Source: Chryseobacterium sp. (lineage in GTDB: Bacteria; Bacteroidota; Bacteroidia; Flavobacteriales; Weeksellaceae). Taken from it: 64,000 nt of DNA. The translations under genes and the position numbers were made by a program. Below the pieces are notes generated by a model. It had not been told where the DNA came from, ran no database searches, and worked only from the letters and a program-made list of their open reading frames with translations. Numbering within the stretch: position 1 is the stretch's first letter; each line of letters begins with the position of its first letter. Location of the stretch: positions 63,221 to 127,220 of the forward strand of contig JAPUEB010000035.1 of assembly GCA_027492795.1 (NCBI GenBank). The letters run 5' to 3'. Shown here in pieces: positions 13,150 to 48,972 of this stretch.

Positions 13150-16100
13150 TCAGGAAACAATATTAATGATTTTTTTCGGAACAATAATTACTTTTTTCGG
13201 TGAATTTCCAGCCAGTTGATTCTTTACCCTTTCATCACTCATCGCTGCCTCTTCTATTTGTTTGGCATCAAAATCTGCCGGAAGCGCCAATTTGAAACGC
13301 ATTTTTCCATTGAAACTTACCGGATATTCTATTTCATCTTCCTCCAAATAAGATTCATTTAAGATTGGGAAAGGCTCAAATTCAACACTTGTTTCATGGC
13401 CAAGCAAACTCCACAATTCCTCGCAAATGTGTGGTGCGTAAGGAGAAATGATGATTGCTAAAGGTTCTAAAATTTTTCTTTTGTTGCATTTTAGCTTTTG
13501 AAGTTCGTTTACGGCAATCATAAATTGCGAAACGGAAGTGTTAAAAGAAAAATGTTCTATATCAAAAGTAAATTTCTTGATTAAAGTATGTAGAATTTTG
13601 TACTCCTCTTTCGTTGGTTCCTCATCTGAAACTGAAAACGTATCACCATCGAAATACAGGTTATAGAATTTCTTCAAAAATCCGTAAACTCCGCTTAAAC
13701 CTTGCGTGTTCCAAGGTTTTGACTGTTCCAAAGGTCCCAGAAACATTTCATATAAACGCAGACAATCTGCACCGTATTCTTCGCAGATATCGTCGGGATT
13801 GACGACGTTGTATTTGGATTTGGACATTTTTTCGACTTCTCTTTCAGTAATGTATTTTCCCTCTTCCAAAATAAATTCTGCATCTGCGAATTCCTTTCTC
13901 CAATTTTTGAATTTCTCAATATCCAATTCATCGGAAGTTCCTTTTAATAAAGAAACATCTACGTGAATTTTTTGGAAAGAATAAGTACCGGGAAATAATT
14001 CTTTATTAAAATGACTAATATTGTCTTTAAATAATATTTTTTCAATCTCACCCCATATTTCACGATCGTATTTCCCTAATACTTCATTTTGTTTTAAATT
14101 AAATTCTAATGTTTCCTGAGATAGCTCTTTACCCTTAATTATTGGTCTTACTGATTTAAAATATTTAATTAATCTAGGATCAACATATTTATTTAACACA
14201 ATATGCTCTAAAGCTCCAAAGTCATTTTCCTTTGACGGAATTCTGTAATTAACCACTAAACGATAAACAAACGCACTCATTCCCAAAATCATTCCCTGAT
14301 TAATCAATTTTTTGAAAGGCTCTTCCTGATGGATGTAACCTCTGTCCTTCAAAAACATATTCCAAAAACGGGAATACAGCAAATGTCCTGTTGCGTGTTC
14401 GCTTCCGCCAATATACAAATCAACCTGTCCCCAATAATCTGTTAAATTTTTATCCGCAAAATTTTCAGAATTTTTCGGATCCATATATCTTAAAAAATAC
14501 CACGAACTTCCAGCCCAACCCGGCATTGTGGAAAGTTCAATGGGAAATATCCTCTCCCCAACCCTCTCCAAAGGAGAGGGGGGCGGAACTACCTTTTCAG
14601 AAAGCTCGTCCCAATACCACGCTTTAGCGTTTCCAAGTGGCGGATCGCCGTCTTCGGTTGGCAAATATTTTTCAACTTCTGGAAGTTCCAAAGGAAGCGC
14701 AGAAACTGGCAAAGTGTAAGGCATTTCATCTTTATAATAGACAGGTACTGGTTCTCCCCAATATCTTTGGCGTGAAAAAATAGCATCGCGCTGACGGTAA
14801 TTCGTTGTTCCGTGACCAATTCCGCGGTTTTCTATTTCGTCAATGATTTTCGTTTTGGCGGTTTCATAATCCAATCCATCCAAAAATTCTGAATTTACAC
14901 AGACAGAATCTTTGGAATCGTACGATTCTTCCTGAATATCATTATCATTTTTAATGACATTTACGATGTCCAAGCCGAATTTTTTCGCAAATCTGTGGTC
15001 GCGTTCGTCGTGTGCAGGAACTGCCATTACAGCACCAGTTCCGTAACCCATCAAAACATAATCGGAAATATAAATTGGAATTTCTTTTTCTGTAAAAGGA
15101 TTGATTGCATAACTTCCCGTGAATGCTCCGGAAACGGTTTTCACATCCGACATTCTGTCGCGCTCGGTTTTTTTGGAAGTTTCTTCTACATATTTTTCAA
15201 CTTCCGCTTTTTGTGAATCGGTTGTTATTTTTTCAACCAAAGGATTTTCTGGTGCCAAAACCATAAATGTTGCGCCGAAAATAGTGTCGGGACGAGTTGT
15301 GAAAACGGTGATCACATTCCCCCTTTCCCCCAAAGGGGAGAGCTGTGGCAAATTATTCTGGTTGTATTGTGGTTGATTCTCTGGGTGGATTGTGGATATT
15401 TCTTGGACTTCTGATTTTTTTTCTACAAAATCTGGTCTTGATTCTAACTTTACTACAATTTTTTCGATAACATTTTCATTATCACCGATTACTTCCTCAT
15501 TTCTGAATCTAACTACTTCAAAGCCTTCAGATTCCAAAATTTTCGTTCTTTCTTCATCTGAAATTTGTTGCTCCTCCTCATCGTGGTAACCGCCATCAAC
15601 TTCAATAATTAATCTTTTTGATAAACACACAAAATCAACAATAAAATTGTCAATTAGGTGTTGTCTCCTGAATTTATAATCTAATTTTTTAGATTTTAAT
15701 TGCTCCCAAAGAATACTTTCTGCCACAGTTGGATTATCTCTATTTTCCTGTGCTTTTTTAATTAATAGTGCAGAATTATTTCCTCCTGTTAAATATCCAA
15801 ATTTTTGAGCATCACTTTTTAAATCAGCATTTTTTAAAGACTCATTATTAGATTCATTTTTTAGAGACTCAATATTAGATTCATTTTGTAGAAATTCATT
15901 ATTAGAGACATTCTCCCCTTTGGGGGAAAGGGGGAATTTAACCTGCGCTCCCATCGATTTCCCAATCCAATATTCCTGCGAATCTTTCAACGGTTGTGGC
16001 CAATCGATTTTTTGTAAACCTTGCAATAGTCTTTCAGAATAGGCGGTAATTCTCATACTCCATTGCATCATTTTTTTCTGAAAAACTGGGAAGCCGCCAC

Positions 16101-16800
16101 GTTCAGATTTTCCGTCTTTTACCTCATCATTTGCGAGAACTGTTCCTAATGCAGGACACCAATTCACAGTTGTTTCTGCTCGGAAAGCCAATCTGTAATT
16201 CAATAAAGTATCTTGTTTATCGAGTTCTGAAGCGTTGTTCCATTCTTCTGCCGTGAAATTTAATTTTTCGGTTTCTGCAGCGTGAAGATTTTCCGTTCCG
16301 TGTTCTTCAAAATATTTGATTAAAGTAGAAATCGGTTCTGCTTTATCCGTCGTTTTATTGTACCACGAATGAAATAATTCAATAAAAATCCATTGCGTCC
16401 ATTTGTAATACGATGCATCGGAAGTTCTTACTTCGCGATTCCAATCGAATGAAAAACCGATTTTTCTTAATTGTTCTTCGTATCTGGTAATATTTTGTTC
16501 GGTGGTAATTGCAGGATGTTGACCGGTTTGAATGGCGTATTGTTCCGCAGGAAGTCCGAAAGAATCGTAACCAATCGGATGCAAAACATTAAATCCTTGA
16601 TGCCGCTTAAATCTCGCATAAATATCGCTCGCAATATAACCAAGCGGATGACCAACATGAAGCCCCGCTCCTGAAGGATACGGAAACATATCCAAAACGT
16701 AGAATTTTGGTTTATCTGTTGCGTCAGAAGTTTTATAAGTTTGGTTGTCTTCCCAATATTTCTGCCACTTTTTTTCTATCTGCTGATGATTGTAGAACAT
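13150..16800 (-). CDS. leuS: Leucine--tRNA ligase, about 300 aa longer than usual because of in-frame insertions
   Basis: HIGH-type motif (GLHVGHPLGY), TTRPDT editing-domain motif, KMSKS, and a full-length continuous ORF of 1216 aa. Confidence 0.9.
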   Translation of the reverse strand: MFYNHQQIEKKWQKYWEDNQTYKTSDATDKPKFYVLDMFPYPSGAGLHVGHPLGYIASDIYARFKRHQGFNVLHPIGYDSFGLPAEQYAIQTGQHPAITTEQNITRYEEQLRKIGFSFDWNREVRTSDASYYKWTQWIFIELFHSWYNKTTDKAEPISTLIKYFEEHGTENLHAAETEKLNFTAEEWNNASELDKQDTLLNYRLAFRAETTVNWCPALGTVLANDEVKDGKSERGGFPVFQKKMMQWSMRITAYSERLLQGLQKIDWPQPLKDSQEYWIGKSMGAQVKFPLSPKGENVSNNEFLQNESNIESLKNESNNESLKNADLKSDAQKFGYLTGGNNSALLIKKAQENRDNPTVAESILWEQLKSKKLDYKFRRQHLIDNFIVDFVCLSKRLIIEVDGGYHDEEEQQISDEERTKILESEGFEVVRFRNEEVIGDNENVIEKIVVKLESRPDFVEKKSEVQEISTIHPENQPQYNQNNLPQLSPLGERGNVITVFTTRPDTIFGATFMVLAPENPLVEKITTDSQKAEVEKYVEETSKKTERDRMSDVKTVSGAFTGSYAINPFTEKEIPIYISDYVLMGYGTGAVMAVPAHDERDHRFAKKFGLDIVNVIKNDNDIQEESYDSKDSVCVNSEFLDGLDYETAKTKIIDEIENRGIGHGTTNYRQRDAIFSRQRYWGEPVPVYYKDEMPYTLPVSALPLELPEVEKYLPTEDGDPPLGNAKAWYWDELSEKVVPPPSPLERVGERIFPIELSTMPGWAGSSWYFLRYMDPKNSENFADKNLTDYWGQVDLYIGGSEHATGHLLYSRFWNMFLKDRGYIHQEEPFKKLINQGMILGMSAFVYRLVVNYRIPSKENDFGALEHIVLNKYVDPRLIKYFKSVRPIIKGKELSQETLEFNLKQNEVLGKYDREIWGEIEKILFKDNISHFNKELFPGTYSFQKIHVDVSLLKGTSDELDIEKFKNWRKEFADAEFILEEGKYITEREVEKMSKSKYNVVNPDDICEEYGADCLRLYEMFLGPLEQSKPWNTQGLSGVYGFLKKFYNLYFDGDTFSVSDEEPTKEEYKILHTLIKKFTFDIEHFSFNTSVSQFMIAVNELQKLKCNKRKILEPLAIIISPYAPHICEELWSLLGHETSVEFEPFPILNESYLEEDEIEYPVSFNGKMRFKLALPADFDAKQIEEAAMSDERVKNQLAGNSPKKVIIVPKKIINIVS
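14549..14583. repeat. Short palindromic element (CCTCTCC-n-CCCTCTCC-aaa-GGAGAGGG) inside the leuS coding frame
   Basis: atcctctccccaaccctctccaaaggagaggg. The same 32 nt with 1 mismatch occurs intergenically at 47769-47800. Confidence 0.8.
15316..15937 (-). mobile_element. TIR-bounded cassette carrying a DUF559 (Vsr-like PD-(D/E)XK) endonuclease domain, in frame within leuS
   Basis: Perfect 26-bp inverted repeats: attccccctttcccccaaaggggaga at 15316-15341 and its exact reverse complement at 15912-15937. The interior encodes ESILWEQLKSKKLDYKFRRQHLIDNFIVDFVCLSKRLIIEVDGGYHD...GFEVVRFRNEEV (about 15455-15725). Confidence 0.8.
15830..15910. repeat. 3 x 27-bp tandem repeat inside the leuS cassette
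   Basis: Units at 15830-15856, 15857-15883 and 15884-15910. They encode (E[SF]L[KQ]NESN[NI]) x3. Confidence 0.8.
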
Positions 16801-33101: not shown

Positions 33102-33605
33102 ATGAAAAAACTAATTTTTATTTTAATATCTCTTTTAGTGGTTTCGTGTGGAAAAAAACAAACTGAAGTATCCGAAAAAAGATTGTTGCAAGATACCTTG
33201 CAAAAAATAGACAGCATAAACGCTCATCGCACAAAATATAACGACAGTATTCGTGCGTTGAACAGCCAAAACAGATACCGCGATTACAGCGGAACTCATC
33301 AATTTTCTCACAGTGAAATTAATAAAACAGGTACTGTAAAGTTCACGAAAATTGGGCGCGATGAGTACAAATTGAGTGGCAAAATCTCTTCCGGAATTAA
33401 TTCGGTCGAAATTTCTGGCGTCGGAGAATTGGTTACCGAAAAATATTTGAATTTTGATGGAAAAATCATTCAAAAAATTGATGGAACTACCTATGTACGC
33501 AATAAAAAAACATCCTTCAAAGATGAGAAAAAAGGAAATTTCTGGCGACTGCAGGATAAAGTGAACAGCGATGGTTTTGTGGATTATATTGATATCTATT
33601 TTTAG
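33102..33605 (+). CDS. Hypothetical lipoprotein
   Basis: 167 aa with lipobox LLVVSC. No motif recognised. Confidence 0.55.
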   Translation: MKKLIFILISLLVVSCGKKQTEVSEKRLLQDTLQKIDSINAHRTKYNDSIRALNSQNRYRDYSGTHQFSHSEINKTGTVKFTKIGRDEYKLSGKISSGINSVEISGVGELVTEKYLNFDGKIIQKIDGTTYVRNKKTSFKDEKKGNFWRLQDKVNSDGFVDYIDIYF

Positions 33606-33670
33606 GTTGAGGTTGAGGTAAAGGTTGAGGTAAAGGTTGAGGTAAAGGTTGAGGTAAAGGTTGAGGAAAA
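33605..33670. repeat. 12-bp tandem repeat (ggttgaggtaaa) x about 5.5
   Basis: Directly visible. It starts at the last base of the upstream stop codon. Confidence 0.9.
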
Positions 33671-33714
33671 ATTTAGAGTTGAAGTTAAAATATAAATTTT
33701 AAAAAAATTAGAAA

Positions 33715-47513: not shown

Positions 47514-47768
47514 ATGTGTTTAGCAATCCCAGGAAAATTAGAAAGCATCACGACCAAGCTCGACGAAACCTTCCGTATTGGAAGCGTTGATTTTGAAGGC
47601 ATCAAAAAGGAAGTCAATCTCGCATTGGTTCCCGAAGCGAAAATTGGCGACTACGTTTTGGTTCACGTTGGTGCCGCAATTGGAATTATTGATGAAGAAG
47701 AAGCCCAAAAAACAATGGACGCGCTGAAATTAATGGGCGAAGATTTGGAATTGGATTCGGAATCCTAA
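47514..47768 (+). CDS. hypC: Hydrogenase assembly chaperone HypC
   Basis: Starts MCLAIPGKL (essential Cys2), so the longer track ORF start is rejected. Confidence 0.9.
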   Translation: MCLAIPGKLESITTKLDETFRIGSVDFEGIKKEVNLALVPEAKIGDYVLVHVGAAIGIIDEEEAQKTMDALKLMGEDLELDSES

Positions 47769-47800
47769 ATCCTCTCCCTAACCCTCTCCAAAGGAGAGGG
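47769..47800. repeat. Short palindromic element, twin of the one inside leuS
   Basis: atcctctccctaaccctctccaaaggagaggg matches 14549-14580 at 31 of 32 positions. Confidence 0.8.
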
Positions 47801-47964
47801 AACGATTACGCTCCAGTTTTGAAAATAGAACTAAAAATGTAAAAATTATATTTTTTAAAAACAGAACACTCGCATTTAATTTTAGAATTTTTGAAATTTA
47901 GTTTAAAAAATATCACACAATCATAAAACGTACGAAGTCCTTCTCCTTCTGAGAAGGATTTAGG

Positions 47965-48972
47965 ATGAGGCTTATGGAATCAATCAACCTGCAACACGGA
48001 AGTGGTGGCGAAAAGCAAACAGAACTTCTTAACAATCTGATTTTCAAAATTTTAGATAATGAAATTCTGAACCAAAAACACGACGGTGCTTTTCTGAATC
48101 TTTCCGGAAAATTGGCTTTTTCCACCGACAGTTTTGTGGTTTCGCCGATATTTTTTAAAGGTGGAAACATTGGAGAACTCGCAGTTTTTGGAACAGTAAA
48201 TGACGTTTCAATGTGTGGTGCAGAACCGAATTATTTGTCGCTTTCATTCATTATTGAAGAAGGTTTTTCGATGGAAGATTTTCAAAAAATCATCAATTCC
48301 ATAAAAATTGCATCAGATAAAGCGCAGGTAAAAATCGTAACGGGCGATACAAAAGTTGTGGAGCGTGGAAAAGGCGATAAAATCTACATCAACACGTCGG
48401 GAATTGGCACGGTTTACGAAAATTCTAAAATCGGAATTCAATATATCAAACCAAACCAAAGCATCATCATCAACGCGGGAATTGCTTCTCACGGAATGGC
48501 GATTATGAGCGAAAGAGAAGGTTTGAAATTTGATTCTGAAATTCTCAGCGACACCAAAAACCTCAATTTTGAAGTCAAAAAATTAATAGAAAATTTCGGA
48601 GAAAAAATACATTTTTTGCGTGATGCAACAAGAGGAGGAGTAGCGTCCGTTCTCAACGAAATTACTTCCGAAAGCAACCTCGGAATTCATCTTTTTGAAG
48701 AAAAAATATTTGTAGAAAAACAAGTGCGAAGCGCTTGTGAACTTCTCGGCTTAGACCCAATGTATGTTGCAAATGAAGGCGTTTTTCTTTGTGTTTGCGA
48801 TGATGAAATTGCCGATGAAGTTTTAGAAATTCTAAAAATAGTAAATTCTCACGCTTCAAAAATTGGTTTCATTACAGAAGAACACGCAGGAAAAGTAATT
48901 ATGGAAAGTGCTTTTGGTGGAAAACGCGTGGTAAACCCTTTGATTGGAGAGCAGTTGCCGAGGATTTGTTAA
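47965..48972 (+). CDS. hypE: Hydrogenase expression/formation protein HypE
   Basis: ..LQHGSGG.., AIR-synthase-like fold, C-terminal PRIC. An alternative ATG lies at 47974. Confidence 0.9.
   Translation: MRLMESINLQHGSGGEKQTELLNNLIFKILDNEILNQKHDGAFLNLSGKLAFSTDSFVVSPIFFKGGNIGELAVFGTVNDVSMCGAEPNYLSLSFIIEEGFSMEDFQKIINSIKIASDKAQVKIVTGDTKVVERGKGDKIYINTSGIGTVYENSKIGIQYIKPNQSIIINAGIASHGMAIMSEREGLKFDSEILSDTKNLNFEVKKLIENFGEKIHFLRDATRGGVASVLNEITSESNLGIHLFEEKIFVEKQVRSACELLGLDPMYVANEGVFLCVCDDEIADEVLEILKIVNSHASKIGFITEEHAGKVIMESAFGGKRVVNPLIGEQLPRIC

What the first reader, a model, noticed from the sequence alone, without database searches (positions are those of the whole stretch)
47769..47964. Shared 'X-X-loop-X' architecture of several short elements (hypC-hypE spacer, leuS, cassette TIRs)
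Four sequences share one design: a C/T-rich block, its direct repeat, a 3-nt loop, then the complement.
- cctctcc..ccctctcc-aaa-ggagaggg at 47771-47800 and at 14551-14580.
- ccccc-ttt-ccccc-aaa-gggg(a)g in the cassette TIRs at 15316 and 15937.
- tccttc-tccttc-tga-gaagga at 47938-47958, just upstream of the hypE start.

This design allows two alternative hairpins (slipped pairing). It suggests one recognition logic shared by diverged families, for example a common nuclease or transposase acting in trans. The DUF559 protein is an obvious but unproven candidate.
Basis: partly seen in the sequence, partly recalled or inferred. Interest (0 to 1): 0.6.

Follow-up and report, generated by a model that had tools for sequence, protein, structure and literature searches.

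The report
Triplex-type end modules of DUF559 elements
The short "X-X-loop-X" sequences are real copies of a known but unexplained bacterial repeat design (BoxC / intrastrand-triplex motif: a hairpin plus a mirror-image third block). Here and across bacteria they form the ends of small DUF559 nuclease gene cassettes and their gene-less derivatives, which makes that nuclease a testable candidate for the enzyme that spreads them.

Summary

Three corrections:
1. The enrichment comes from two dispersed repeat families: A, about 35 copies, and B, about 30. It is not a general pattern.
2. The outer block is the mirror image of the hairpin's 5' arm, not a direct repeat. In 110 asymmetric arms flanking DUF559 genes, mirror beats direct 84 to 2.
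3. The hairpin before hypE is a diverged family-A copy on the minus strand. With the copy at 47769 it bounds a 202-bp MITE-like insert, which is absent from a sister genus.

Mirror block, 3-nt spacer, hairpin and 3-nt loop together are the published BoxC/PIT/TMECO intrastrand-triplex design. Its base rule holds here: C opposite G·C pairs, T or A opposite A·T pairs.

The modules flank DUF559 genes in Bacteroidota, Proteobacteria, Cyanobacteria and Deinococcus, and E. coli ycjD has one about 200 bp downstream. Slipped pairing is not general. Recognition by DUF559 remains unproven, and two module-rich genomes have no DUF559 gene.

This scan has noted the DUF559-BoxC link before on other DNA. I found no paper describing it.

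The parts
47769..47802 (+). Family-A (A1) end module. X1 is CCTCTCCC at 47771-47778, the spacer TAA at 47779-47781, X2 CCCTCTCC at 47782-47789, the loop AAA at 47790-47792, and X2' GGAGAGGG at 47793-47800. It starts directly after the hypC stop codon.
   Evidence: Read. nhmmer E = 9e-11. Covariance model R1 scores 50.9 bits. The DNA fold gives an 8-bp hairpin with X1 unpaired.
47803..47937 (.). A/T-rich interior of the gene-less element. Its subterminal stretches are homologous to other A-ended elements of this genome (GGGAA..GCTCCA on the left, CACACAATCATAAAACG..GAAGT on the right).
   Evidence: It aligns end to end with the element at G000:C30:30893-31044 (score 95, null maximum 33) and with C35:184819-184954.
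47938..47970 (-). Diverged family-A (A2-type) end module on the minus strand. It reads CCTCATCCT-AAA-TCCTTCTCA-GAA-GGAGAAGGA. X1 is 47962-47970, the spacer 47959-47961, X2 47950-47958, and X2' 47938-47946.
   Evidence: 32 of 37 positions are identical to the A2 consensus. The nhmmer match covers the whole model; its genome-wide E of 1.5 is equivalent to about 5e-4 within 500 bp of another A copy. The mirror-module detector finds it on the minus strand. One base triple changed in all three blocks together: X1 C to T, X2 C to T, X2' G to A.
47769..47970 (.). Whole 202-bp MITE-like element with inverted A-type modules. It fills the hypC-hypE spacer.
   Evidence: A sister genus (G010) has hypC TAA + TTACAAA + ATG hypE at this place, and G016 has a 41-nt spacer. 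Two other A-A elements of 152 bp exist in this genome.
47974..48972 (+). hypE, with its likely true start at ATG 47974 (MESINLQHG...). The ATG at 47965 lies inside the repeat's X1 block.
   Evidence: The G010 and G016 hypE genes start MESINLQHG and MEENINLQHG. ORF list.
14549..14583 (+). Solo family-A module read in frame inside leuS (minus-strand peptide PPPSPLERVGERI). X1 is 14551-14558, CAA 14559-14561, X2 14562-14569, AAA 14570-14572, and X2' 14573-14580.
   Evidence: G010 has unrelated sequence of similar length at this spot.
15316..15341 (+). Family-B end module (ATTCCCCC-TTT-CCCCC-AAA-GGGGAGA). This is the end of the cassette next to the C-terminus of the DUF559 domain.
   Evidence: 26-nt perfect inverted repeat. 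About 30 genomic copies, mostly in inverted pairs 98-622 bp apart.
15912..15937 (-). Family-B end module at the N-terminal end of the cassette.
15445..15759 (-). DUF559 (Vsr-like PD-(D/E)XK) nuclease domain. It is translated as residues 348-452 of the 1216-aa leuS open frame.
   Evidence: PF04480 at E = 6.6e-34 and 4e-35. PDB 3HRL at E = 1.6e-19, and 3R3P ('mobile intron protein') at E = 0.0015.
15316..15937 (-). 622-bp DUF559 cassette in frame in leuS. It is the only element in this genome with B-type ends that has coding capacity.
   Evidence: The site is empty in G010. The same site in G001 holds a cassette with A-type ends.

Best explanation
Each site is one copy of a three-block end module. 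On the C-rich strand it reads X1, about 3 nt, X2, about 3 nt, X2'. X2 and X2' form a pyrimidine/purine hairpin, and X1 is the mirror image of X2.

On the G-rich strand this reads Y, loop, R, loop, R-mirror. That is the published class II purine-motif intrastrand-triplex design, known as BoxC, PIT or TMECO. In it the third block can lie antiparallel on the purine arm through G*G.C, A*A.T or T*A.T triples.

Two inverted modules bracket a small DUF559 (Vsr-like) nuclease gene and form a selfish cassette; here it sits in frame in leuS. Internal-deletion derivatives and single modules are scattered through the genome. They include B-B, A-A and A-B gene-less elements (the 202-bp one between hypC and hypE is A-A) and solo modules such as the one in leuS.

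My proposed mechanism is inferred, not shown. The DUF559 nuclease, acting in trans, recognises the folded geometry of the ends rather than a fixed sequence. The ends would fold when single-stranded or extruded, for example during replication or repair. The nuclease then nicks or cuts there to start copying or movement. This would explain why geometry and the triple rule are conserved while the arm sequence drifts, even between the two ends of one cassette.

The purine/pyrimidine make-up also keeps modules largely free of stop codons, so they survive inside genes.

My odds for the separate steps:
- BoxC-type mirror plus hairpin architecture: about 0.95.
- Modules are the ends of DUF559 cassettes and of their gene-less derivatives: about 0.85.
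- DUF559 is the enzyme that acts on them: about 0.5.
- A triplex is the form recognised: about 0.35.
For: Mirror, not direct:
- In 110 asymmetric arms the mirror match is 0.909 and the direct match 0.743.
- Mirror beats direct 84 to 2.
- Permuting the X1/X2 pairings gives 0.736 +/- 0.010 (maximum 0.770).
- The inner-side control gives 0.41.

Triple rule (130 distinct ends):
- Opposite a C in X2, X1 is C 711, T 14, A 1, G 0.
- Opposite a T in X2, X1 is T 131, A 43, C 2, G 0.
- A-for-T occurs in 19 different arm types, mostly 3-5 nt from the spacer.
- The spacer is 3 nt in 96 of 130 ends and the loop is 3 nt in 98 of 130.

Match to the literature (PMC4666352):
- This is the R-motif rule (A(T)AT and GGC) and the class II layout described for TMECO.
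- The single strand was shown there to form a stable triplex in vitro by CD and NMR.
- The diverged copy at 47938-47970 carries a three-way compensatory change.

Link to DUF559:
- 78 of 80 Bacteroidota loci have such hairpins.
- Density is about 15 times higher near the gene than in far flanks.
- Ten of 12 DUF559 loci from Alpha- and Gammaproteobacteria, Cyanobacteria and Deinococcus have mirror modules within 250 nt, often as an inverted pair around the gene.
- The only DUF559 gene of E. coli MG1655, ycjD, has a TMECO about 200 bp downstream. The expected number there is 0.006.

Gene-less derivatives and mobility:
- Most B-B elements (six of the eight ends examined) keep one cassette-5'-type subterminal end (..TCTCTAATA..) and one 3'-type end (..TGGCAAAT..).
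- Filled and empty sites are seen between genera.

Nuclease kinship:
- The domain matches a homing endonuclease of a mobile intron, PDB 3R3P.
Against: - No biochemical evidence links DUF559 to these ends.
- Holder et al. saw no triplex signal for the double-stranded TMECO and no protection in in-vivo DMS footprints. A stable triplex in the cell is therefore unlikely, and any triplex would be transient.
- Six of 13 module-bearing genomes in the order sample lack a DUF559 match. G130 (11 modules) and G103 (5 modules) have none even at E <= 1.
- Sixteen DUF559-bearing genomes have no match to model R1. That model misses 5-bp stems and variant layouts.
- The second DUF559 gene of this genome (contig C7) has hairpin ends with the G-rich third block on the inner side, after a 12-30-nt spacer. 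The layout is therefore not uniform.
- No target-site duplication or exact excision footprint could be defined.
- The hairpins in my sample were selected for perfect stems, so stem pairing itself is not independent evidence.
- The loci are related to one another, so the counts overstate independence.
Confidence: 0.55

Rival explanations
1. The modules are self-standing structural repeats, as BoxC has been viewed so far. They would be spread or maintained by host replication or repair, or by some other enzyme. The DUF559 genes would be guests that prefer to land in or next to them, or are retained there, rather than their driver.
For: - Most family-A copies are solo.
- Two genomes have 11 and 5 modules but no DUF559 match at E <= 1.
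- In E. coli about 30 motif sites accompany a single DUF559 gene.
- Holder et al. found no mobility genes near TMECO.
- Another repeat family in this window was linked to an IS200-like transposase in an earlier scan note. I did not test that.
Against: - DUF559 is the only coding content found between paired modules, in five phyla.
- The modules sit at regular distances, mostly about 40-130 nt from the domain at both ends, in inverted orientation.
- The gene-less B-B elements keep the cassette's own subterminal sequences. This fits derivation from the cassette rather than a gene landing between pre-existing repeats.
Confidence: 0.25
2. The C/T-rich, G/A-rich design is selected only because it is harmless inside genes. 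It would be free of stop codons and would encode Pro/Ser/Gly-rich linkers such as PLSPKGE and SPLGERG, without any DNA-structure role.
For: - Modules average 4.84 open frames of 6, against 3.70 for random 34-mers.
- 28 of 83 modules are open in all six frames, against 4.6% of random 34-mers.
- 42 of 83 lie in stop-free stretches of 250 codons or more.
- The junction peptides of in-frame cassettes are Pro/Gly-rich.
Against: - It does not explain the mirror relation of X1 to X2, the fixed 3-nt spacer and loop, or the A-for-T rule. The A variant creates a TGA in one reverse frame.
- It does not explain the same design at intergenic DUF559 genes in other phyla and in E. coli.
- About a fifth of the spacers (26 of 130) are TAA or TAG.
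Confidence: 0.1
3. One reading: a direct repeat of the stem arm allows two alternative hairpins by slipped pairing, and this is the shared recognition feature.
For: Family B can fold either way. X1-TTT pairs with AAA-X2', and this is the minimum-energy fold of 15316-15341. CCTCTCC and CCCCC equal their own mirror images, so direct and mirror readings coincide in the window.
Against: - For asymmetric arms the direct match is no better than composition predicts, at 0.743 against 0.726 +/- 0.009.
- Arms such as CTTCCCC with X1 CCCCATC cannot form a slipped Watson-Crick pairing.
- In family A the outer block stays unpaired in 81% of the ensemble.
Confidence: 0.04
4. Chance resemblance of unrelated short hairpins.
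For: At k=5 the generic pattern is no more frequent than in shuffles: 28 against 21.7.
Against: - 83 modules in the genome against 7 in the shuffled genome.
- Families of about 30 copies each.
- Mirror beats direct 84 to 2, sign test p about 1e-22.
Confidence: 0.01

Closest known systems
BoxC / PIT (potential intrastrand triplex) / TMECO motifs of E. coli and other bacteria (Holder et al. 2015, PMC4666352, which cites the 1990s BoxC papers and Hoyne et al. 2000)
   Same: - Same three-block layout, 5'-CCCTCNCCC-N3-6-GGGNGAGGG-N3-GGGNGAGGG.
- Same class II purine-motif triple rule, same 3-nt second loop, and the same T-for-A in the third block (E. coli GGGAGAGGG-TTA-GGGTGAGGG; here GGAGAGGG-TTG-GGGTGAGG).
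- Dispersed in tens of copies, often as inverted pairs.
   Different: - Here the modules are shorter (5-9-nt stems) and sit in a 36% G+C Bacteroidota genome.
- About half lie inside open reading frames, whereas TMECO was reported as always intergenic.
- They are the ends of a DUF559 nuclease cassette and of gene-less derivatives. The paper reports never finding mobility functions next to TMECO.
MITEs and their autonomous parent elements
   Same: - Short (98-461 bp) gene-less elements with inverted ends, in many copies.
- They share terminal and subterminal sequence with one larger coding element.
- Presence or absence differs between related genomes.
   Different: - The coding element carries a Vsr-like PD-(D/E)XK nuclease, not a known transposase.
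- No target-site duplication was found.
- The two ends of one element can differ in sequence while keeping the same fold.
REP / BIME / REPIN repeats with RAYT (IS200/IS605-like TnpA) enzymes
   Same: Dispersed hairpin repeats, single or in inverted pairs, flank a single-copy enzyme gene that is thought to act on the folded DNA in trans. This is my own knowledge of the family.
   Different: - The enzyme class differs: a PD-(D/E)XK nuclease instead of a HUH tyrosine transposase.
- The repeat has a mirror third block instead of a guide tetranucleotide.
- No RAYT lies between these modules.
Rickettsia palindromic elements (Ogata et al. 2000; my own knowledge, not re-read here)
   Same: Short palindromic repeats inserted in frame in protein-coding genes and translated as extra peptide segments.
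   Different: RPEs have no known associated gene and no purine/pyrimidine mirror design.
Vsr-like (EDxHD) homing endonuclease I-Bth0305I of a phage group I intron (PDB 3R3P)
   Same: The cassette's domain matches it at E = 0.0015, and matches the DUF559 structure 3HRL at E = 1.6e-19. This shows that the fold is used by mobile DNA. The same fold group is listed in PMC3424549.
   Different: There is no intron or intein here, and the cassette is simply translated within the host protein. Homing alone would not explain gene-less copies at dozens of different sites.

Membership tests
BoxC / PIT / TM intrastrand-triplex motif (class II purine motif) | Three consecutive blocks on one strand (pyrimidine block, purine block, reverse-Hoogsteen block) separated by loops of 1-6 nt | tested here: met
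   All five window sites and 130 DUF559-flanking ends. The spacer is 3 nt in 96 of 130 and the loop is 3 nt in 98 of 130.
BoxC / PIT / TM intrastrand-triplex motif (class II purine motif) | Block 2 is the Watson-Crick complement of block 1 (a hairpin) | tested here: met
   8-bp hairpins of -7 to -8 kcal/mol as DNA. Stems differ between families by C-G to T-A exchanges. That sample was selected for perfect stems.
BoxC / PIT / TM intrastrand-triplex motif (class II purine motif) | Block 3 mirrors block 2 under the triple code G*G.C, A*A.T or T*A.T | tested here: met
   Mirror match 0.909 against 0.736 when permuted. The base table is C to C 711 of 726, and T to T 131 or A 43 of 176.
BoxC / PIT / TM intrastrand-triplex motif (class II purine motif) | Stem length of 6-15 nt (ITxF criterion) | tested here: met
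   Family A has 8-9 nt. Family B, with 5 nt, falls just below the criterion.
BoxC / PIT / TM intrastrand-triplex motif (class II purine motif) | The isolated strand folds into a triplex in vitro | not testable with these tools
   Shown for TMECO by CD and NMR in PMC4666352, but not for these sequences. ViennaRNA cannot model triplexes.
MITE (gene-less derivative of an autonomous element) | Terminal inverted repeats, small size, no coding capacity, many copies | tested here: met
   Twelve B-B, three A-A, two A-B and one diverged A-like element of 98-461 bp, besides the 622-bp cassette.
MITE (gene-less derivative of an autonomous element) | Ends and subterminal sequence shared with a coding parent element | tested here: met
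   Most B-B elements examined carry one ..TCTCTAATA.. end and one ..TGGCAAAT.. end, as the leuS cassette does. The A-type parent is seen in G001.
MITE (gene-less derivative of an autonomous element) | Target-site duplication | tested here: inconclusive
   The flanks are A/T-rich (AAT/ATT), but no consistent duplication appears. Empty sites come from other genera and are too diverged to read to the base.
MITE (gene-less derivative of an autonomous element) | Presence/absence polymorphism | tested here: met
   The hypC-hypE spacer is 7 nt in G010 and 205 nt here (202-bp element plus CTT). The leuS cassette site is empty in G010.
REP/RAYT system | A RAYT (IS200/IS605-type TnpA) gene flanked by the repeats | tested here: not met
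   The only gene between modules is DUF559, PF04480.
Homing endonuclease element (intron- or intein-borne) | The nuclease is embedded in a self-splicing intron or intein | tested here: not met
   The cassette is read through in one 1216-aa frame with no intein domains in Pfam. No Rfam intron was found in the window.
DUF559 / Vsr-like PD-(D/E)XK nucleases | Match to PF04480 above the curated cut-off, with the conserved core (..IEVDGGYH..) intact | tested here: met
   116.5 bits against a cut-off of 20.6. The invariant columns are kept in alignment A1. 3HRL at E = 1.6e-19.

The most novel reading that the evidence does not exclude
BoxC-type triplex motifs have lacked a known function or spreading mechanism since the 1990s. 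In this reading they are the structure-coded ends of a widespread, undescribed class of mobile element. The element's only gene is a DUF559 (Vsr-like) nuclease that recognises a folded hairpin-plus-third-strand end rather than a sequence. This lets families with unrelated arm sequences, and even the two unlike ends of one element, use one enzyme logic. It also lets the elements live translated inside essential genes.
Probability: 0.35. Interest if true: 0.85.

Novelty: new variant of a known kind. Interest (0 to 1): 0.65.

Why it matters
BoxC/PIT/TMECO repeats have been catalogued in hundreds of bacterial genomes and shown to fold as triplexes in vitro. The main study found no function and reported no mobility gene near them (PMC4666352).

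The same three-block design forms the ends of DUF559 nuclease cassettes in at least five phyla. The mirror and triple rule is kept while the sequence changes. Together these turn an open question into a bench test: does a DUF559 protein bind or cut its own folded end?

It would also give a function to a very large family of unknown function, the family of E. coli YcjD.

Finally, it would explain how short repeats and a whole nuclease domain come to be translated inside housekeeping proteins such as LeuRS and guanylate kinase.

For annotation, it moves the hypE start to 47974 and marks 47769-47970 as an inserted repeat element rather than a regulatory spacer.

Tried and rejected
- **Substitution-only fuzzy matching.** It missed indel variants. 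I replaced it with nhmmer profiles.
- **Simple terminal-inverted-repeat search around the 80 DUF559 loci.** It looked negative for about half of them. The reason is that the two ends often differ in sequence; hairpin-based detection found the modules.
- **Slipped Watson-Crick pairing as the common feature.** Rejected.
- **G-quadruplex or i-motif reading.** Rejected, because only three G- or C-runs lie on one strand per module.
- **Programmed inversion of the gene between the repeats.** DUF559 is enriched among predicted inversion targets in PMC9881135. I rejected it for in-frame cassettes, because inversion would destroy the essential host gene.
- **Mixed stem lengths in one MAFFT alignment.** The loop shifted, so covariance model R1 was built from 8-bp stems only. 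As a result it misses family B, which has 5-bp stems.
- **Rfam.** No family matches at these sites.
- **Target-site duplication and exact boundaries.** Not resolvable from cross-genus empty sites.
- **Literature.** No paper in the library links DUF559 to these repeats.
Full report
**1. What is in the sequence**

The quoted strings are all present. The window is contig C35:63221-127220 of a 2.96-Mb, 36% G+C genome.

leuS (13150-16800, minus strand) is an uninterrupted 1216-codon frame with two in-frame inserts:
- a 35-nt element at 14549-14583;
- a 622-bp cassette at 15316-15937, bounded by 26-nt perfect inverted repeats.

The cassette encodes a DUF559 domain, PF04480, E = 6.6e-34, residues 348-452.

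hypC ends at 47768.

**2. Is it more than chance?**

| k | window | shuffles |
|---|---|---|
| 5 | 28 | 21.7 |
| 6 | 8 | 2.7 |
| 7 | 2 | 0.17 |

The generic pattern is therefore not enriched, and the excess comes from particular repeats. Genome-wide there are two families.

- **Family A** reads ATCCTC[T/A]CCC-[C/T]AA-CCCTCTCC-[A/G]AA-GGAGAGGG, with about 35 copies. Subtype A1 has an 8-bp stem. Subtype A2 reads CCTCTCCCT-AAA-TCCCTCTCC-GAA-GGAGAGGGA, with a 9-bp stem.
- **Family B** reads ATCCCCC-TTT-CCCCC-AAA-GGGG(A/G), with about 30 copies.

B copies come almost always as inverted pairs 98-461 bp apart. The leuS cassette, at 622 bp, is the only pair with a gene inside. A copies are mostly single, but three A-A pairs and two A-B hybrids exist.

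**3. The third hairpin is an inverted, diverged A copy**

The family-A profile matches 47935-47970 on the minus strand over its full length. Its genome-wide E of 1.5 corresponds to about 5e-4 within 500 bp of another A copy.

On that strand it reads CCTCATCCT-AAA-TCCTTCTCA-GAA-GGAGAAGGA. This is 32 of 37 identical to the A2 consensus.

The whole stretch 47769-47970 aligns end to end with the A-A element at C30:30893-31044 (score 95, null maximum 33). It also shares the subterminal CACAC.AT.ATAAAACG stretch with C35:184819-184954.

In sister genus G010, hypC TAA is followed by TTACAAA and then ATG-GAA-AGC-ATC-AAC, that is MESINLQHG. G016 has a 41-nt spacer.

Three conclusions follow:
- 47769-47970 is a 202-bp gene-less element inserted between the hypC stop and the hypE start.
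- The true hypE start is ATG 47974.

**4. The outer block is a mirror image, not a direct repeat**

I fetched 80 DUF559 loci from Flavobacteriales, Bacteroidales, Chitinophagales and others.
- 78 of the 80 loci, and 138 of 160 ends, have a pyrimidine-arm hairpin within 220 nt of the domain.
- The arm sequences vary widely. Examples are CTTCCCC, CCCTTTCC, CCCCCTCC, TCCTCCC and CCTCCCC.
- Each arm is preceded, about 3 nt upstream on the outer side, by its reversed sequence. CTTCCCC is preceded by CCCCATC, CCCCCTCC by CCTCCCCC, and TCCTCCC by CCCTCCT.

For 110 distinct ends whose arm differs from its own mirror image:

| measure | mirror | direct |
|---|---|---|
| observed match | 0.909 | 0.743 |
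| X1/X2 pairings permuted | 0.736 +/- 0.010 (max 0.770) | 0.726 +/- 0.009 |
| ends where it wins | 84 | 2 |

The inner side of the hairpin gives 0.41.

**5. The base rule is that of a purine-motif triplex**

Over 130 distinct ends:

| base in X2 | C in X1 | T in X1 | A in X1 | G in X1 |
|---|---|---|---|---|
| C | 711 | 14 | 1 | 0 |
| T | 2 | 131 | 43 | 0 |

- The A-for-T replacement occurs in 19 different arm types. It lies mostly 3-5 nt from the spacer and never next to it.
- Read on the G-rich strand, the third block carries G opposite G.C pairs and A or T opposite A.T pairs.
- That is the rule for antiparallel (R-motif) triplexes, and the layout Y, loop, R, loop, R is 'class II' (PMC4666352).
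- The spacer is 3 nt in 96 of 130 ends and the loop is 3 nt in 98 of 130.
- The diverged copy at 47938-47970 shows one base triple changed in all three blocks together: X1 C to T, X2 C to T, X2' G to A.
- An Azospirillum copy shows the same triple change: CCTCATCCC / CCCTTCTCC / GGAGAAGGG.

*Caveats.* The hairpins were picked for perfect stems, so stem pairing is true by construction. The X1 relation was not used for selection. Many loci are related to one another.

**6. What is known**

The design is the BoxC / PIT / TMECO motif, 5'-CCCTCNCCC-N3-6-GGGNGAGGG-N3-GGGNGAGGG. According to PMC4666352:
- it was found 3610 times in 262 proteobacterial genomes;
- the isolated strand forms a stable triplex in vitro (CD, NMR);
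- the duplex does not form a triplex, and in-vivo DMS footprints show no protection;
- it has no promoter or terminator activity;
- it is associated with local genome variability;

The E. coli sequence GGGAGAGGG-TTA-GGGTGAGGG is almost the family-A sequence read backwards, GGAGAGGG-TTG-GGGTGAGG.

**7. Link to DUF559**

*Density.* Mirror modules occur at 2.48 per kb within 220 nt of DUF559 domains, at 0.163 per kb 400 nt or more away in the same loci, and at 0.028 per kb over this genome.

*Architecture rather than sequence.* Of 46 cassettes with modules at both ends, 28 have different arm sequences at the two ends.

*Same site, different ends.* In sister genus G001 the same leuS site holds a DUF559 cassette with A-type ends: ATCCTCACCCCCAACCCCTCTCCAAAGGAGAG... 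and ...CCCCTCTCCTTTGGAGAGGGGTCGGGGGTGAGGAT. G010 is empty at this site. A and B ends are therefore interchangeable around related nucleases.

*Outside the phylum.* Ten of 12 DUF559 loci on plasmids or chromids have mirror modules within 250 nt, often as an inverted pair around the gene. Deinococcus has CCCCTCC-cag-CCTCCCC-...-GGGGAGG on both sides. The loci came from Sphingomonas, Sinorhizobium, Azospirillum, Methylobacterium, Photobacterium, Picosynechococcus, Synechocystis, Pseudanabaena and two Deinococcus species.

*E. coli.* MG1655 has one DUF559 gene, ycjD, and about 30 motif sites. One site lies about 200 bp downstream of ycjD on the gene's strand, where 0.006 would be expected.

*Genome-level co-occurrence* in 121 genomes of the order:

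| | DUF559 present | DUF559 absent |
|---|---|---|
| modules present | 7 | 6 |
| modules absent | 16 | 92 |

The odds ratio is 6.7 and p = 0.003, uncorrected for kinship. The model used detects only A-like stems.

*Against an obligate link.* G130 (11 modules) and G103 (5 modules) have no DUF559 match even at E <= 1.

**8. Gene-less derivatives and life inside genes**

Most B-B elements examined (six of eight) keep one cassette-5'-type subterminal end (GAGAAAATCTCTAATAC..) and one 3'-type end (..TGTGGCAAAT), as expected of internal-deletion derivatives.

On stop codons and position in genes:
- Modules are depleted of stop codons: 4.84 of 6 frames are open, against 3.70 for random 34-mers.
- 34% of modules are open in all six frames, against 4.6% of random 34-mers.
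- 42 of 83 lie in stop-free stretches of 250 codons or more.

Relatives of the cassette protein are found fused in LeuRS, in other class I tRNA ligases and in guanylate kinase of Prevotella and Hoylesella. Their junction peptides are Pro/Gly-rich.

**9. How it most likely works**

*Shown:*
- the three-block mirror-plus-hairpin architecture;
- its conservation across sequence-diverged families;
- its position as the ends of DUF559 cassettes;
- gene-less derivatives;
- presence/absence differences between genera.

*Inferred:*
- The ends fold when single-stranded or extruded, as a hairpin with or without the third strand.
- The Vsr-like nuclease recognises this geometry in trans and cuts nearby to start copying or movement.

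The domain's kinship to a mobile-intron homing endonuclease (3R3P, E = 0.0015) and to 3HRL (E = 1.6e-19) makes a DNA-cutting role in mobility plausible.

**10. Standing and novelty**

The motif class is already known. I found no paper on its role as the end module of DUF559 cassettes and MITE-like derivatives, on the quantified mirror/triple rule at those ends, or on the in-frame copies. PMC9881135 only lists DUF559 among genes enriched for flanking inverted repeats.

Earlier notes of this scan report the DUF559-BoxC link on many other genomes, and report the cassette and the 32-nt element in this window. I reached the mirror/BoxC reading, before reading the notes. I tested the E. coli and cross-phylum claims myself.

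Noticed in passing
window 47965-47976: The ATG at 47965, taken as the hypE start, lies inside the repeat's X1 block (GGATGAGG). Relatives start at the equivalent of ATG 47974 (MESINLQHG).
   Followed up: yes
L002 1405-1470 and 1895-1950 (G000:C7, second DUF559 gene): This standalone 138-aa DUF559 gene has hairpin ends CCCCTCT/AGAGGGG. The G-rich third block (GGGGTGT, the mirror of AGAGGGG with T for A) lies on the inner side, after a spacer of 12-30 nt that itself forms a small hairpin. The module layout is flipped and stretched.
   Followed up: partly
G000 contigs C32:2724-3042, C17:11491-14289, C6:101151, C24:117384: Many modules and whole gene-less elements lie inside very long stop-free frames (1148, 2004, 1186 and 1199 codons). 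In-frame carriage is therefore common in this genome, not special to leuS.
   Followed up: partly
L006 915-1495 (G001, hypC-hypE spacer): The sister genus G001 has a different insert of about 590 bp at the same hypC-hypE junction. It contains two small open frames and no triplex modules.
   Followed up: no
L096 6250-6440 (E. coli MG1655, downstream of ycjD): Between ycjD and its BoxC copy lies a second, degraded copy of the ycjD 3' end (..ETVLENIRQGLNR..). It is followed by a decayed G-rich block, as if a second cassette had decayed there.
   Followed up: no
window 15828-15908: Three tandem 27-nt repeats inside the cassette encode the NESNIESLK-like repeats upstream of the DUF559 domain.
   Followed up: no
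window 33589-33684: A tandem array of a 12-nt unit (TTGAGGTAAAGG), unrelated to the modules.
   Followed up: no
G130 and G103 (same order, genus g23): These genomes carry 11 and 5 A-like modules, some in inverted pairs about 110 bp apart, but have no DUF559 match even at E <= 1.
   Followed up: partly
one search match table (G113, G093, G051, G082, G049, G112): Several DUF559 domains in other Flavobacteriales genomes lie in open frames of 1000-1200 codons, the size of leuS plus a cassette. This suggests the same host gene is hit repeatedly.
   Followed up: no
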